A program made the position numbers and the translations under genes. Of a stretch of 64,000 nt of DNA, positions 1,089-60,079 are shown piece by piece; position 1 is the first letter of the stretch, and every line of letters begins with the position of its first letter. Source of the stretch: Octopus vulgaris (Eukaryota); NCBI GenBank assembly GCA_951406725.2, contig OX597820.1, forward strand, positions 55,676,001-55,740,000, read 5' to 3'. The notes beneath the pieces were generated by a model that worked only from the letters and a program-made list of their open reading frames with translations, was not told where the DNA came from and did no database searches.

Positions 1089-1280
1089 GGGTTTAGGGTT
1101 ACAGTTAGGGTTAAGGGCCAGGGTTAGGATTAGGGTTTAGGGTTAGGGTTTGGAGTTACGATTAGGATTTCGGGTTAGTGTTAGACTGTATACTAGGGTG
1201 TAAATTAGGGTTTAGGGTTAGGGTTTGGAGTTACGATTAGGGTTTCGGGTTAGTGTTAGACTGTATACTAGGGTGTAAAT
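1089..1280 (+). repeat. Degenerate telomere-like (TTAGGG) tract with a 75-bp tandem duplication
   Basis: Many TTAGGG/TTTAGGG variants; 1130-1204 is repeated almost exactly at 1205-1279. Confidence 0.9.
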
Positions 1281-18003: not shown

Positions 18004-18007
<4 letters not shown>

Positions 18008-18810
18008 CTTTTTGTTTAGCTAGAAGGATTTGCACCATAATATCAGACACAAACACCCGACACACACACGTCTCCAGGAACTTAGAACCACACTCACAAA
18101 TAGAAACTATCCACAGCCCCTAATAGACAGTGCAATCCAACGGGCACTTAAATTAAGTATAGAAGACCTGAGACAAACAAAACCAAAAAAGAAAGAACAA
18201 TTAAAAACCCTTCCCTACATCTCTACACACAACCCACTCAACAATGAGGCCTTCAGCACCATACTACAAAGCACAACCCTGCTAAAGGGAGACCCAAAGA
18301 TGAACCGGATCCTCGAAACACACACCATCATTAAAAGTAAACGGCAACCAAAATCCTTGAAAAGGATTTTAACCCAAAGCTAAACTGCACTCAACATCAA
18401 CCACAAAACCAGCAGTTAGAAAATGTGGAGGGCCCAACTGCGGAATCTGTGTCATCTTGGTAGAAGGTTCAGAATTTATACTAGATCAAGGTCATCAGTT
18501 CACCATCAGAGCAAACTTCACCTGTGCATCAGAAAACTTAATTTACGTCTTAACATGCGCAGGCTGCAATAGGCAGTATATAGGCCATACAAAAAATAGC
18601 TTACGTAACAGGATGGCGGTGCATAAATCACAAATTAGAAACCCTGAATACCGGAAAATACCGGTCAGCGGACACATAGATAGATGTGCTGCAAATGTAA
18701 ATCCGAAATTTACAACTTACCCACTTTACAAATTCAGTGACAGCATAACCTTCACGCAACGCCAAAATAAGAACTTTATTTCATCAAAAAATTTAGACCA
18801 AGTTTGAACA
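18004..18810 (+). mobile_element. Penelope-like element relic: RT thumb, Cys linker and GIY-YIG endonuclease
   Basis: VPFCLARRICTII..RLQELRTTLTNRNYP, KRQPKSLKRIL, KCGGPNCGIC, FTCASENLIYVLTCAGCNRQYIGHTKNSLRNRMAVH; frameshifts and stops; starts right after (TA)n. Confidence 0.92.
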
Positions 18811-19070
18811 CCCTGGGCCAGGAATATTAAAACAAAACATTGGTCTTCCGAAAAAGAAAAACGAAATTCTACCACAACCACTACGACTGCCCCTACTCGC
18901 ACTACTACTACAACCACCGTGGTCACTGTTGCTACGGCCACAGTGAGAGAATTATAATAATGGAGGTGGGGCGAATTACAATTTCTCAGATCCTTAAACA
19001 GTCACTCACGCTGGCAGTGATATGTCTTAGGGAAGGAAAAATTTATAAAAAGATTTCTTTCTCTGCGAGC

Positions 19071-23862: not shown

Positions 23863-24910
23863 GGCGTTCCTTCGTTTAAACTCGACAAAACTATAACAAG
23901 ACCTCGGTTGTTTCCGTGTCAACTCGACAATTCACTTCGGATATCTTCGTGACCTCCGTGACAGTGTGCGTGTTCTGTTTTTATATACTTATGTGTTGTG
24001 GAATATCATCATGGCTCGGCTTCGTGAACGGAGATCAGGAAGGCTGTCCACGTCGTATGCATGCATGCTCATGACTGATAAGTCCGATATGGGAAAGGCA
24101 GGTCCGTGAGCAGTGTCCACAGACGAAGGTAACATCCGGTGTAGTGTCAGAGGCGGCTCGCGCCTTCCTCCTGCGTCTCTTGTCTTTAAGTGCGTCTCTT
24201 ATTTGTTCCTCAAACTTGCTGACTGCGTTGAAGATCGTGTGGCGCCAGACATCACGGTCCGCAGCCAGGTCTGACCAGCATTGGTGGTTAATTTGACATG
24301 CTGTTAGAGACTTCTTGAGGCAGTCTTTGTAGCGCTTCCTCGAAGCTCCTCTCACTCGGTGGACGGTGGAGAGTTCGCCAAACAGGGCAATCTTTGAAAG
24401 ATTGTACAAACGTGTTTGGCACAACAGTGGCCTGAAGAACAAAACAAGGATCAGTGTCTACAGGGCCGTGGTTCTCACCATTCTTCTCTACGGCTCAGAG
24501 ACCTGGATCACTTACCGCAGTCACATCCGTTTCCTCGAGTGCTTCCACCAGCGATGTCTCCACACCATCCTCAACATTCACAGGAGTGACTTCGTCACAA
24601 ACATTGAAGTCTTGGAGCGGGCCGAGATCCCCAGCATTGAAGCCACGCTACTGAAGTACTACCTCCGATGGGCAGGGCATGTCTCCAGAATGGAGAACCA
24701 TCGCCTTTCAAAGATTGCCCTGTAGAATATAGATATAACGAAATTATGCCAGCAAAAAGCCTTGCATATTTGTTCTTACCTGCTTCATGTGTGTATGTAA
24801 AATCCGCAAATTTTCGGAGGTCACGAAGATATCCGAAGTGAATTGTCGAGTTGTCACGGAAACAACCGCGGTTTTGTTATAGTTTTGTCGAGTTAAAACG
24901 AAGGAACGTC
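23863..24910. mobile_element. MITE with ~96-bp TIRs and 8-bp TSD, carrying an RTE insertion
   Basis: 23863-23959 is the reverse complement of 24815-24910; TSD tatataaa at 23855-23862 and 24911-24918. Confidence 0.85.
24007..24722 (-). mobile_element. 5'-truncated, internally inverted RTE-clade LINE
   Basis: Minus strand: KIALFGELS..RKRYKDCLK..DRDVWR..CGHCSRTCLSHIGLISH (C-terminal zinc finger). Plus strand 24390-24722: VYRAVVLTILLYGSETW..FHQRCL..LRWAGHVSRMENHRLSKIAL. Probable TSD tgt(g/a)gaatat. Confidence 0.92.
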
Positions 24911-30986: not shown

Positions 30987-31046
<60 letters not shown>

Positions 31047-31143
31047 CGGGAAGCTTTATGAAAATAAACAAAAGACGAAGGCAGGTGGAAAACAAACGAA
31101 CAATTGTATTAGTATGGCGCTCAGGAAATATAAATAAAACAAG

Positions 31144-31181
31144 TCTTTAACGTTTCGAGCCTACGCTCTTCAACAGAAAGA
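31144..31181 (-). ncRNA. Minimal type I hammerhead motif with variant core CUGUUGA
   Basis: Minus strand: tcttt-CTGTTGA-a-gagc-gtag-gctc-GAAAC-GTT-aaaga; stems I and II pair perfectly. Confidence 0.65.
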
Positions 31182-31413
31182 TACACAGAGAGAGAAAAAC
31201 ACAGAAAGAAGGAGAGAAAAAAATGCGTGCAGTAGCTAACGAATCAACATGGCGATCTGATTTCGGCCAGAGGTCAAAGATCAAACATGAGACGCGAGAG
31301 CAAAATAAGGGGAGATAATAGGGTTGATAAAAGGGTTGAGGGACCAGCTAAATGTGCGTGGGAGGGGTCTGGATGTGTGTATGTATAGGGTTGGTGTATG
31401 TATTAGTATGTAT

Positions 31414-32835: not shown

Positions 32836-32851
32836 AGTTTATATATATATA

Positions 32852-32978
32852 CAGGGTGTCCCAAAAAATGTATACACATAGTGGTTCGGCAAAAGAGAAC
32901 GATAGAATAAGTACTAGGCTTACAAAGAATAACAAATTTACAATTATTTAAGGTGTGTATACATTTTTTTGGGACATC

Positions 32979-32981
<3 letters not shown>
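32852..32981. mobile_element. 130-bp Tc1/mariner-type MITE
   Basis: TA|cagggtgtcccaaaaaatgtatacac...gtgtatacatttttttgggacatcctg|TA. Confidence 0.85.
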
Positions 32982-33016
<35 letters not shown>

Positions 33017-33080
33017 TCGCGTGTGTACCGTTGGCGATTTTTCCCCTCCGTCTTCCCTTCTCTGGATCTTTCCTTTTCCT

Positions 33081-33119
33081 GTGTTTCTGACGAAGAGCTC
33101 CGCTCGAAACGTTAAACGC
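33081..33119 (+). ncRNA. Minimal type I hammerhead ribozyme (Penelope/retrozyme type)
   Basis: gtgttt-CTGACGA-a-gagc-tcc-gctc-GAAAC-GTT-aaacgc: intact core, 6-bp stem I, 4-bp stem II, palindromic AACGTT stem III. Confidence 0.85.
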
Positions 33120-33690
33120 TCCTTCTTCCTTCCCTTCTTGAGCGTCCAATAATACTATATTTGCTCCACATCCTCGCGTTGTTGTGTTTTCTCTTTGTGT
33201 TTTCATATTTGGATTAATTATATATTTATATATATATATATATATATATATGCGCTGGTGTTGGACCTATATGTGTGGTGTATGAGTGTGCGCACGTCCC
33301 ACACCACTTGAGAAGCGGTGTTGGGATTTTTACATCCACGTAAGCAGCGGTTCGGCGAAATTAACCAATAGAATAAGTATCAGCTTAAAAAAAAAATAAA
33401 TAAAGTACTGGGTTGATTTGTTCATTCTGAAAAAAATTTCAAGGTGGTGCTCCAGTATGACCGTAATCTAATGACTGAGACATGTAAATGGTAACTGGTA
33501 AATGATCCATGCACGCACACACACACACACAAATATGTGTGTTCGTGCATACAGACAGAAGGGATGCTATGCATGGTTGAGCACACTACTATCAACACCA
33601 ACACCTACCACTAACCAGCGCCATCTGTTGCAAAGCCCGCAAGTTACACACATAGATACTGCTACTATCACTACCACCACCACCACCACA

Positions 33691-54351: not shown

Positions 54352-55010
54352 CAAAAAGAACAGAACAAGAACATAATGGATGACAATGAAAACATATGGA
54401 CAGATGGACGATACAAAGTTGGACAGGAAAATCAGGACGGAACATTCATGGCTTTCTATTCATCAATAAATATATATAATCAGATATCAGAAAGCAGAAC
54501 CAAAATTGAGGTCGATCAACATCAGTGGAAATTGCAACTCTGGTTAAGCGAACCATCCGAGCGTGACCGTTGCTGGTGCTGCCCCGTCTGGCCTCTGTGC
54601 CGGTGGCACGTAAAAGCACCATCCATTCGTGTCCGTTGCCAGCCTCGCCTGGCCCCCGTGCCGGTGGCACGTAAAAGCACCATCCGTTCATGGCCGTTTG
54701 CCAGCTCTGTCTGGCACCTGTGCGGGTGGCATGTAAAAAGCACCCACTACACTCACGGAGTGGTTGGCGTTAGGAAGGGCATCCAGCCGTAGAAACACTG
54801 CCAGATCAGACTGGGCCTGATGCGGCCTTCCGGCTTCACAGACCCCAGTTGAACTGTCCAACCCATGCTAGCATGGAAAGCGGACGCTAAATGATGATGA
54901 TGATGATGATATATATATATACAGCTGAAATTTATAGAAAAGTAAAAGATGAAGACAGGTGTATGAACAACAAGCAGGTGTATTAATTTAACGCTCAGGA
55001 AAATGAAAAA

Positions 55011-55050
55011 GTCTTTTATGTTTTGAGCTTACGCTCTTCAACAGAAAGGA
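55011..55050 (-). ncRNA. Decayed CUGUUGA hammerhead motif
   Basis: Minus strand: cttt-CTGTTGA-a-gagc-gtaa-gctc-AAAAC-ATA-aaag; GAAAC and GT lost by CpG-type G>A changes; flanks 54920-55010 are homologous to 31046-31143. Confidence 0.5.
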
Positions 55051-56014
55051 ATAAGAGAAAATAAACAGAGAGAGAATGAAAAAAAACTTGAAGATTTAGC
55101 GGTCAGGCATGGTGAATGATTAGAAAAAAAGCTTGAAAGAAAGAGAGATAATAAAGTGCTGGTGATCCTAAATGAAGATGCGTGTGCATGTGTGTGTATC
55201 TGAGAATGGTGTGGGTAAGATGAGACAAGTGACTCTATTGTGTATGAGTGTGCATGTCTGTAATGTGTATGTGTTGTGTGTAGCAGTTCAGGTGTATGTT
55301 TTCACATGGTGTATTTACATATGTGTGTGTTTATGTGACCAAACAGTGTGCATGTGTATGGTGTATATATGTGTATATATGAGAGAAAATCAGGGAAGAA
55401 ATGAAGGAGGTAAGGCTACAAATACAAGTGAGAGGGCGAGAGAGAAAAAAGGGGGAAATTGTCATGCTAGAAATAGAAGTAAGAGGGCGAGAGACAAAAG
55501 GGGAAAGAGTGTATATTCTGTGTGACTCTACTCTTGCTTTCACTCTTTCTCCTTTTTTCGCTTGCCCTCTTACTTCTATTTCTAGCCTGTTCACTTCCCC
55601 CTTTTTTTCCCTCTCTCTTGCAGATTCTAGATGTGTTGCTTTTACATACTAAATGTGCTTGGTAGTATATAAGGTGGGGGTTAATGGGCAATGTAATCTG
55701 AAAGCTTTGTTGATGTAATTGAGTGTTAGAACGGTGCAGGTGGGGTGTTTTTTTGTTGTGGAAACCATTATGTATTTTTGTGCAATGATCAGAACTGAAT
55801 GTAGCCCTCTCTCTCTCCTTTGTTGTCACTTTGATTTACTGCTGGGTAGAAATCTCTCTTCATTTCATGTTGCTCCAGTCCACTCAGCTGTAGAAATGAA
55901 TTTAGCCTGGTGAGTGATGGGTTCTACCAGGCTTTCTGTCCTTGATATGCTGCATGGCTGCAGTGCCCCAACGACCCCCAAGGGATTAAGAGACTTGTCA
56001 AATTATCAATGGGT

Positions 56015-59155: not shown

Positions 59156-60079
59156 TGCTTGTGTAGAATAGAAAATGATGTATCTTTAATTAGCAAGGTG
59201 ATGTATGTGGTTTTGGTAGTGAGGTTGTAAGGCTGATGAGGTTTGTAAAGTTGCAATGCTGCTGTATTTTCTCTAATCTTATCTGTATTGTTTTTATATC
59301 TAGCTTTGTTGCTATTGTTTAGAAGACCTTGATGAAAAGCACTGTAACTGGAGCCACCATGTTTTATCTGTACAACTAAATAATCCTATGTGCCCTTCTT
59401 TTTAGGACTACATTTATTCAGTGTGTCCTTTTTCCTTTTAAGCCAGCAGAGGCTTCTTTGTTGGCTGACAGGTGGAAAGTGTTTGGGAGCGGGGTAGCAA
59501 AAATAGTACTGGGAGGTGATAAAAGCTTCACACATTTTTATTCTCACATACATGCATACTCGTATGTACACACACACACAGACACACATACACTACTGAA
59601 AAATGTGTAACTAAGCATCAGATTTGTTATTTCAAATGTTACCTTTTGTGGGTCATCTCCCTCACTCTCCCCATACCCCTAAACTAGTCAAATACACTCT
59701 AGTTGCATTGTTCCTATATCTAGAAAACTAGGTCAGAATAATTTTGAAATTTAGAGTAGAATGATTTTGGAGGATGAAGAATTAGGAGTTGTAGCAGCAG
59801 CAGTAGTTGCAACAGTTTATTGTTTACCCCCAGGTCAACCTATAATCAGAAGTAATTCCAATCATGACCTATCATTTTATGCAATGTAATATGTCCTTAT
59901 TAAAGACAGTAGCATGTGATTTAAGGGAAATGGGCTACTGCTTCTAGCAGGTTGAATGGCCAGTCCGGAAGGACATTGTAGAATTGGTTGGTTCCCTCCA
60001 ATTGTCATTACAGCTAAGATGTTACTTGCTTACTTAAGCCCTTTGCCTTCCAATGGAGCATTCAACATTTATTCGTTTA

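What the first reader, a model, noticed from the sequence alone, without database searches (positions are those of the whole stretch)
33015..33220. ~205-bp hammerhead-bearing mini-element bounded by (TA)n on both sides: candidate retrozyme or solo pseudo-LTR family
Seen: an intact minimal type I hammerhead (33081-33119; predicted GUU cleavage after 33113) followed by tgagcg.cca..taatac, ccac.t.cct.cg and a T-rich tail into (TA)n. The same module order occurs at 31046-31185 and 54920-55050 on the minus strand. No ORF. Known: Penelope-like elements and retrozymes carry such minimal hammerheads, which cleave as dimers and can yield circular RNAs. Inference: a non-autonomous, TA-microsatellite-targeting ribozyme element family mobilised by the GIY-YIG Penelope machinery seen at 18 kb. 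With about five hammerhead-like motifs in 64 kb, self-cleaving RNA motifs may be very abundant in this genome and could affect host pre-mRNAs.
Basis: partly seen in the sequence, partly recalled or inferred. Interest (0 to 1): 0.8.

Follow-up and report, generated by a model that had tools for sequence, protein, structure and literature searches.

The report
Hammerhead-bearing tip of a Penelope retrotransposon
This 205-base piece is the hammerhead-motif-bearing end repeat of a protein-coding Penelope-type jumping gene, found in over ten thousand mostly short copies that stop at one shared spot, likely because reverse transcription runs off the start of the element's own RNA, and it is not a separate retrozyme family.

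Summary
The minimal type I hammerhead at 33081-33119 is real. The piece is the terminal pseudo-LTR (pLTR) unit of a coding Penelope-like element (PLE) of Neptune/Nematis type. It lies downstream of RT and GIY-YIG in 17 of 20 endonuclease-bearing copies and at both ends of full-length elements. It is not a retrozyme: 1 of 120 loci has an adjacent head-to-tail copy, and short and long copies intermix on a tree. It is not random truncation either: 69 of 86 sampled 5' ends fall 65-87 nt upstream of the core, none at 99-198. Other subfamilies end at the homologous TCA..ATG motif. The likely cause is run-off at a transcription start inside the upstream pLTR (inferred, untested). Most copies carry core changes: U4C 7,954 versus canonical 3,033; a sister family has A6U in 6,181. 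No 5' end sits at the cut site (0 of 30), so cleavage looks dispensable for spread. The 18-kb GIY-YIG is another family. Known kind, with a modestly new mechanistic clue.

The parts
33018..33219 (+). Solo terminal pLTR unit of a Neptune/Nematis-type Penelope-like element; its 5' end is about 70 nt upstream of core C3 and about 15 nt short of the family's main upper boundary
   Evidence: 90% identical over 208 nt to the upstream pLTR of the full-length copy L235; top 40 genome hits 93-100% identical
33081..33119 (+). Minimal type I hammerhead motif with an extra A between positions 9 and 10.1 and a palindromic ACGT helix III; predicted cut after 33113
   Evidence: one compensatory G-C/C-G change in stem I between families
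33035..33080 (+). Polypyrimidine tract upstream of the hammerhead
   Evidence: sequence
33211..33225 (+). Fixed 3' end, GGATTAA followed by a TA run; inferred site where reverse transcription is primed by pairing with the (TA)n target. In full-length copies the same short TATA stretch is followed by the 5' UTR and the ORF
32982..33014 (.). (TA)n target, left side
33219..33251 (.). (TA)n target, right side
31046..31300 (-). 3' end of a longer copy of a sister PLE family; hammerhead-like core at 31176 with A6U
54920..55120 (-). Copy of a third related family with a degenerate hammerhead (core at 55044)

Best explanation
The piece is the terminal pseudo-LTR unit of a coding Penelope-like retrotransposon, inserted alone into a (TA)n repeat, and it was likely made when the element's reverse transcriptase, primed near the front of its own RNA, ran off the RNA's 5' end after about 215 bases. 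Shown: the anatomy of the parent (pLTR, about 270 nt of 5' UTR, an RT plus GIY-YIG ORF of about 950 aa, a CA-rich 3' UTR of 1.5-3 kb, pLTR); the fixed 3' end; the TA target; and the pile-up of 5' ends at a conserved TCA..ATG motif. Inferred: (1) transcription starts at the initiator-like TCA about 85 nt upstream of the hammerhead core, in the upstream pLTR; (2) GIY-YIG nicks (TA)n and the nick primes on the short TATA stretch about 130 nt downstream of the core start; (3) priming at the upstream pLTR copies only to the start site and gives the solo unit, while priming at the downstream pLTR, or an in-register template jump, gives long copies; (4) the hammerhead is a passenger that need not cut for insertion. 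Confidence that it is a PLE terminus is about 0.93; the figure given is for the run-off mechanism as a whole.
For: Parent: 17 of 20 GIY-YIG-bearing copies have the unit downstream on the same strand, 14 near full length and 3 partial. L235 has pLTR, 5' UTR, a broken ORF, 3' UTR and a partial pLTR. The sister-subfamily copy L202 has an uninterrupted 949-residue ORF with RYIDD, a CX4CX2C linker and CxxC inside GIY-YIG; it is 81% identical over 206 aa to this family's fragment, and has 1,130 homologues. Wall: among 86 family copies from 90 consecutive exact-core matches on contig C1, 69 end at -65..-87, 4 at -94..-98, 0 at -99..-198 and 4 are longer; a constant-hazard model gives p about 1e-88. 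Genome-wide, an 18-mer at -70 occurs 4,336 times and an 18-mer at about -130 only 306 times. A sample not conditioned on the core gives 18 of 30 ends at -61..-85. The wall holds where the flank is not a dinucleotide repeat (19 of 24). It follows the homologous motif rather than a distance: 3 copies of the hairpin-free L202 subfamily end at TCACCATG at -95..-102, and 10 of 22 copies of the 31-kb family end at -58..-87. Literature: the D. virilis Penelope transcript starts inside the upstream pLTR (PMC2377424 passages). A purified anole PLE primes internally at the pLTR-ORF junction, cuts AT-rich DNA and inserts equally well with dead hammerheads (PMC11167929).
Against: No RNA 5' end was measured. 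TCA is only three letters and the initiator consensus is recalled. In the L202-type subfamilies most copies are long. Of their 8 full-length copies, 7 have upstream pLTRs reaching past the motif (-135, -640, -828 and four beyond -870) and one is shorter; these need template jumps or upstream starts. L235's upstream pLTR reaches about -380. Two of 11 copies joined to 5' UTR sequence start beyond the wall, at -98 and -123. A 7-bp hairpin at about -91..-70 coincides with the wall in this family. Ends are spread over 20 nt with sub-peaks at AT/GT microhomologies. The samples come from the first part of one contig and from exact-match patterns.
Confidence: 0.58

Rival explanations
1. Same parent element, but the short copies come from cDNAs primed at the downstream pLTR that stall at a hairpin, or are joined to the target at the first AT/GT microhomology island upstream of the pyrimidine tract.
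For: A 7-bp hairpin at about -91..-70 is the most stable 40-nt window upstream of the hammerhead (about -9 to -10 kcal/mol in L093 and L102), and a weaker one exists in the 31-kb family. The wall is strongest in the family with the strongest hairpin and weakest in the hairpin-free L202 subfamily. Sub-peaks lie at ATGTG and ATT; 54 of 82 5' flanks are microsatellite.
Against: Most ends lie past the 3' arm, in the loop (42 of 82 at -76..-86). Three ends sit at the homologous TCA where no hairpin is predicted. The wall persists in 19 of 24 non-repeat flanks.
Confidence: 0.2
2. The solo units are transcribed from their own internal promoter and are re-mobilised in trans as a SINE-like non-autonomous family.
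For: About 95% of copies are short (82 of 86). The unit holds the inferred start and the priming site. PLE pLTRs can mobilise flanked DNA in trans (PMC3846280 passages).
Against: Short and long or ORF-linked copies intermix on a tree of 155 units: 45 label changes versus a shuffled mean of 50.2, with 38 of 500 shuffles as low; support is weak, only 10 of 151 branches starred. Both diagnostic subfamilies occur among ORF-linked and short copies. All 11 short permuted tandems have different junctions, so none has amplified.
Confidence: 0.13
3. Solo pLTRs left by recombination between the two pLTRs of full-length elements, as for solo LTRs.
For: Proposed for a few solo pLTRs in a rotifer (PMC3846280 passages).
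Against: It would keep the long, variable upstream pLTR ends seen in full-length copies rather than a sharp wall. It needs thousands of full-length precursors, but the 5' UTR 18-mer occurs 16 times against 13,666 for the 3' 18-mer.
Confidence: 0.04
4. A non-LTR retrozyme: tandem units that self-cleave as dimers, circularise and are re-inserted.
For: A type I hammerhead in a short non-coding unit. Two loci (L268, L276) carry two hammerhead-like motifs 350-460 nt apart on one strand.
Against: Of 120 loci, 3 have a same-strand neighbour within 400 bp and only one is adjacent. No 5' end (0 of 30) and no junction (0 of 11) is at the cut site. Most exact-match cores are U4C or A6U. The motifs in L268 and L276 carry core or stem changes.
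Confidence: 0.02
5. Ordinary random-length 5' truncations with no special boundary.
For: A nested series of longer copies exists; 5' truncation is typical of PLEs (PMC8557442 passages).
Against: 69 of 86 ends lie in 23 nt and none in the next 100 nt beyond -98; there is a 14-fold drop in exact 18-mer counts over 60 nt.
Confidence: 0.02

Closest known systems
Minimal type I hammerheads in pLTRs of metazoan Penelope-like elements (Cervera and de la Pena 2014, PMC4209133; parts 1-2 of 4 read)
   Same: No true helix III, palindromic 15.2-16.2, extra base between 9 and 10.1, G10.1-C11.1, 4-5 bp stem I; thousands of dispersed single motifs ascribed to truncated PLEs, few in full elements.
   Different: Stem II is only 4 bp. 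Counts are higher (13,666 for one 3' 18-mer). Dominant lineages carry U4C or A6U. The sharp 5' boundary was not described in the parts read.
Neptune/Nematis clade EN+ PLEs (Craig et al. 2021, PMC8557442; Introduction and passages read)
   Same: Single RT plus C-terminal GIY-YIG ORF, CX2-5CxxC linker, CxxC within GIY-YIG, partial tandems, inverted copies, microsatellite targets.
   Different: Clade not placed on a tree with named references; long CA-rich 3' UTR; strong excess of solo units in this subfamily.
Penelope of Drosophila virilis (PMC2377424, passages) and PAc of Anolis (PMC11167929, parts 1-2 of 4)
   Same: Internal promoter and start site in the upstream pLTR; internal priming at the pLTR-ORF junction; AT-rich targets; hammerhead not needed for insertion in vitro.
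   Different: Both are Penelope/Poseidon clade. In PAc the ATG overlaps the hammerhead and priming is inside the ORF; here the ATG is about 390 nt downstream of the core and the 3' end lies before the 5' UTR.
Non-LTR retrozymes (PMC7229834, passages; bioRxiv 10.64898/2026.07.22.740005, parts 1-3 of 5)
   Same: Short non-coding unit with a type I hammerhead; related to PLE pLTRs.
   Different: Retrozymes are tandem repeats, mostly with canonical hammerheads in the 2020 paper, and give circular RNA. These are dispersed monomers whose ends are not at the cut site.

Membership tests
Minimal type I hammerhead (PLE type) | CUGANGA, GAAA and NUH core with stems I and II | tested here: met
   for the window copy
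Minimal type I hammerhead (PLE type) | Extra base between 9 and 10.1, G10.1-C11.1, palindromic helix III | tested here: met
   features from PMC4209133
Minimal type I hammerhead (PLE type) | Covariation in stems | tested here: inconclusive
   one compensatory pair in stem I among 9 hand-picked sequences; stem II nearly invariant
Minimal type I hammerhead (PLE type) | Self-cleavage as a dimer or with protein help | not testable with these tools
   folding puts only 0.5% of the monomer in the target fold and favours an off-pathway extended stem
EN+ Penelope-like element | Unit is part of an element with one RT plus GIY-YIG ORF | tested here: met
   Pfam RVT_1 E=0.0018 and GIY-YIG E=0.013, both under the curated cut-offs
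EN+ Penelope-like element | pLTRs from partial tandems, hammerhead in the pLTR, inverted copies | tested here: met
   L202, L206, L235; 8 full-length copies; 6 distinct inverted pairs among 120 loci
Neptune/Nematis clades | CX2-5CxxC linker between RT and EN | tested here: met
   CSRSRCNTC in P0001; feature from PMC8557442
Neptune versus Nematis | Placement in the RT phylogeny | not tested
   no clade-labelled references came from the tools
Non-LTR retrozyme | Tandem units, at least two with complete hammerheads | tested here: not met
   1 adjacent head-to-tail pair in 120 loci
Non-LTR retrozyme | Unit boundaries set by the cleavage site | tested here: not met
   0 of 30 5' ends and 0 of 11 junctions at the cut
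Non-LTR retrozyme | Expressed as unit-length circular RNA | not testable with these tools
   only contigs of runs guessed to be RNA were available
Independent non-autonomous (SINE-like) family | Own lineage apart from coding copies | tested here: inconclusive
   no clustering of short copies (38 of 500 shuffles as low), but the tree is weakly resolved

The most novel reading that the evidence does not exclude
Penelope-like elements use a retrovirus-like strong-stop step. Reverse transcription is primed in the upstream pLTR near the front of the RNA and runs about 215 nt to the capped 5' end, then must jump in register to the downstream pLTR to copy the ORF. Failed jumps are inserted as the solo units, and mis-jumps land near the ATG (11 of 16 loci with the 5' UTR marker). 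This would explain how pLTRs and partial tandems are regenerated without ribozyme-made circles, and why lineages with altered hammerhead cores spread freely.
Probability: 0.25. Interest if true: 0.7.

Novelty: new member of a known kind. Interest (0 to 1): 0.36.

Why it matters
As an object it is ordinary: one of thousands of PLE ends with a minimal hammerhead, a described class. Two family-level facts are of use. First, thousands of insertions stop at one conserved motif, which likely marks the transcription start. [quoted passage not shown] Second, the most numerous lineages, including one with an intact ORF, carry changed hammerhead cores, which is genomic support for the in vitro result that cleavage is not needed for PLE insertion. 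An intact 949-residue ORF (L202) makes both testable.

Tried and rejected
Rfam scan: no hammerhead family hit at E<=5, only microsatellite-driven and other sub-threshold matches. The window's 18-kb GIY-YIG fragment as partner: rejected (31% over 48 aa; 29% over 105 aa and no DNA match). Pfam on the 99-aa endonuclease fragment of L061: no family. Sequencing runs: no RNA holder listed. Four runs guessed to be RNA, all contigs, were laid on L235:5900-6700; they cover the unit but cannot show starts, ends or strand, so they are not used as evidence. Cleavage-site-defined insertions: 0 of 30. Splicing as the source of the permuted tandems: the 11 junctions differ from one another and I saw no shared splice boundary. 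Earlier scan notes: three look-ups returned nothing. Rows set aside: 4 of the 90 core-sample loci (L160, L171, L184, L185) belong to other subfamilies and were dropped before the 86-copy counts; L196 was fetched without its 3' side; 8 of 30 loci look like a third family and were left out of the 22; 41 of 196 units were left out of the tree; one or both long calls may be simple-repeat matches. Ten of the 100 places listed were not fetched. No activity data for U4C were found in one search and the passages of one paper. Supplements were not read, and Repbase and Dfam could not be searched, so the family may already have a name there.

Full report
Observation. The window holds a minimal type I hammerhead at 33081-33119 with the stated GUU site, between two (TA)n runs. 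A strict descriptor finds only this one in 64 kb, and no minimal match in 200 shuffles. The modules at 31 kb and 55 kb are related but belong to sister families with altered cores. A looser descriptor adds only the 31-kb copy and one unrelated match at 59233 that may be chance, so five hammerheads is an over-count. The host looks like an octopus from recalled repeat types; this is unverified.

Family size. The genome (2.8 Gb) gives 2,234 candidates for the unit, the 40 scored being 93-100% identical. Exact counts, all lower bounds: canonical 26-mer core 3,033; the same with U4C 7,954; the sister-family core with A6U 6,181; any canonical core with this stem II 4,868; an 18-mer 3' of the cut site 13,666. 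The two 26-mers are shared with neighbouring subfamilies. CCGA to CTGA is a CpG-type change, but the two cores travel with different diagnostic bases, so both are real subfamilies.

It is the end of a coding element. Walking upstream gave a nested series of longer copies through a CA-rich spacer to a GIY-YIG C-terminus. Of 20 copies picked by that endonuclease, 17 have the unit downstream in the same order, 14 near full length. L235 is a pLTR-5' UTR-ORF-3' UTR-pLTR copy whose upstream pLTR is 90% identical to the window unit. L202, of a sister subfamily with the same core, has an uninterrupted 949-residue ORF with RT, a CX4CX2C linker and GIY-YIG with internal CxxC; it has 1,130 homologues, the best 53-58% identical and mostly unnamed. 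The linker marks the Neptune and Nematis clades (PMC8557442). The window's own GIY-YIG fragment at 18 kb (Pfam hit) is only 29% identical and is another family.

3' end and target. The 3' end is fixed about 105 nt after the core 26-mer. It was found in 79 of 90 loci and is followed by TA within 14 nt in 69 of those (background 7%). In full-length copies the same position reads TTATATA and continues into the 5' UTR, which suggests priming by pairing with the target (inferred).

5' ends are not random. Ninety consecutive exact-core matches on contig C1 were aligned to long copies. Four belong to other subfamilies. Of the other 86, 9 end before -65, 69 at -65..-87, 4 at -94..-98, none at -99..-198, and 4 are longer. 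Positions are uncertain by a few bases because of microhomology. A constant-hazard model is rejected. Genome-wide 18-mer counts fall from 4,336 at -70 to 306 at about -130; the first pattern has one degenerate base. A sample chosen on the 3' side gives 18 of 30 ends at -61..-85 and none at the cut site. The wall holds in 19 of 24 copies without a dinucleotide-repeat flank. An alignment of seven copies from several subfamilies shows invariant TC and ATG here. Short copies end at this motif in the 31-kb family (10 of 22), in an intermediate subfamily (4 copies), and in the L202 subfamily (3 copies, at -95..-102, where no hairpin is predicted).

Mechanism. D. virilis Penelope starts transcription inside the upstream pLTR from an internal promoter (PMC2377424 passages). 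Purified PAc primes internally at the pLTR-ORF junction, cuts AT-rich DNA and does not need an active hammerhead (PMC11167929). Taken together, priming at the upstream site should copy only to the start site, which matches the 200-215 bp unit. This step is inferred. Against it: a 7-bp hairpin overlaps the wall in this family; the L202-type subfamilies are mostly long, and 7 of their 8 full-length copies have upstream pLTRs passing the motif; L235 does too. These need template jumps or upstream starts.

Permuted tandems. A 5' UTR 18-mer occurs only 16 times. One runs into the ORF. In 11, the 5' UTR stops within -67..+10 of the ATG and is joined to a pLTR unit starting at -20 to -123. All 11 junctions differ and none is at the cut site. 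They look like template jumps; why they land near the ATG is unexplained. Two of them hold two hammerhead-like motifs in direct orientation, the closest thing here to a retrozyme, but neither has amplified and both carry changes.

Not a separate family. Of 120 loci, 3 have a same-strand neighbour within 400 bp, one of them adjacent, and there are 6 distinct inverted pairs. On a tree of 155 units, short and long copies intermix (45 changes, shuffled mean 50.2, 38 of 500 as low), though resolution is weak. Retrozymes are defined as tandem units (PMC7229834 passages; bioRxiv 10.64898/2026.07.22.740005).

The ribozyme. The architecture matches the PLE minimal hammerhead; a schistosome example was inactive as a monomer and weak as a dimer (PMC4209133). 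Stem I shows one compensatory change between families. Folding favours an off-pathway monomer. In the sample that includes the intact-ORF subfamily, 49 of 52 loci have the U4C core. Core mutations usually cut activity sharply (PMC3088659 passages), but U4C itself was not covered in what I read. An effect on host RNAs is therefore doubtful and untested.

Novelty. Dispersed minimal hammerheads from truncated PLEs are known. An octopus repeat paper lists Penelope-like families and has no occurrence of 'hammerhead' or 'ribozyme' in its main text (PMC13282606 passages). Searches showed no paper describing a start-site wall or a strong-stop model for PLEs; I read only some of the listed papers, no supplements, and could not search Repbase or Dfam. 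Verdict: new member of a known kind, interest 0.36; the strong-stop reading has probability about 0.25 and interest 0.7 if true.

Noticed in passing
window 32850-32982: MITE-like element with terminal inverted repeats (CAGGGTGTCCCAAAAA...) directly left of the target repeat, holding a fragment of another common repeat.
   Followed up: no
window 18004-18810 +: 5'-truncated, frameshifted PLE fragment (GIY-YIG, Pfam E=1.3e-5) of a different family, starting after a (TA)n run; only a degenerate hammerhead-like stretch follows near 18840.
   Followed up: partly
L202 (G000:C1:93328500-93338000, -): Full-length PLE with an uninterrupted 949-residue ORF and two near-identical pLTRs; 8 such pairs 5.6-6.2 kb apart occur among the first 100 places listed, suggesting a young lineage.
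   Followed up: partly
L267-L282: Eleven short permuted tandems in which the 5' UTR ends near the ATG and joins a pLTR unit; the clustering near the ATG is unexplained (RNA 3' ends or a protein-bound site).
   Followed up: partly
L025/L136 (G000:C1:29335615-29338815): Head-to-head pair of units separated by a TA run, both starting at about -85, as expected from priming on both target strands.
   Followed up: partly
alignment A3, just 3' of the TCA motif: A conserved ATG opening a start-stop or very short upstream ORF in several subfamilies; its GT could instead be a splice donor ahead of the pyrimidine tract, as for the Penelope 5' intron.
   Followed up: no
L003, L026, L010, L096, L206: Sister families often insert into each other's TA flanks, producing mixed clusters.
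   Followed up: no
window 1089-1280: Degenerate interstitial TTAGGG repeats.
   Followed up: no
window 24035-24725 -: ORF fragments that resemble the C-terminus of an RTE-type LINE (recalled resemblance; not scanned).
   Followed up: no
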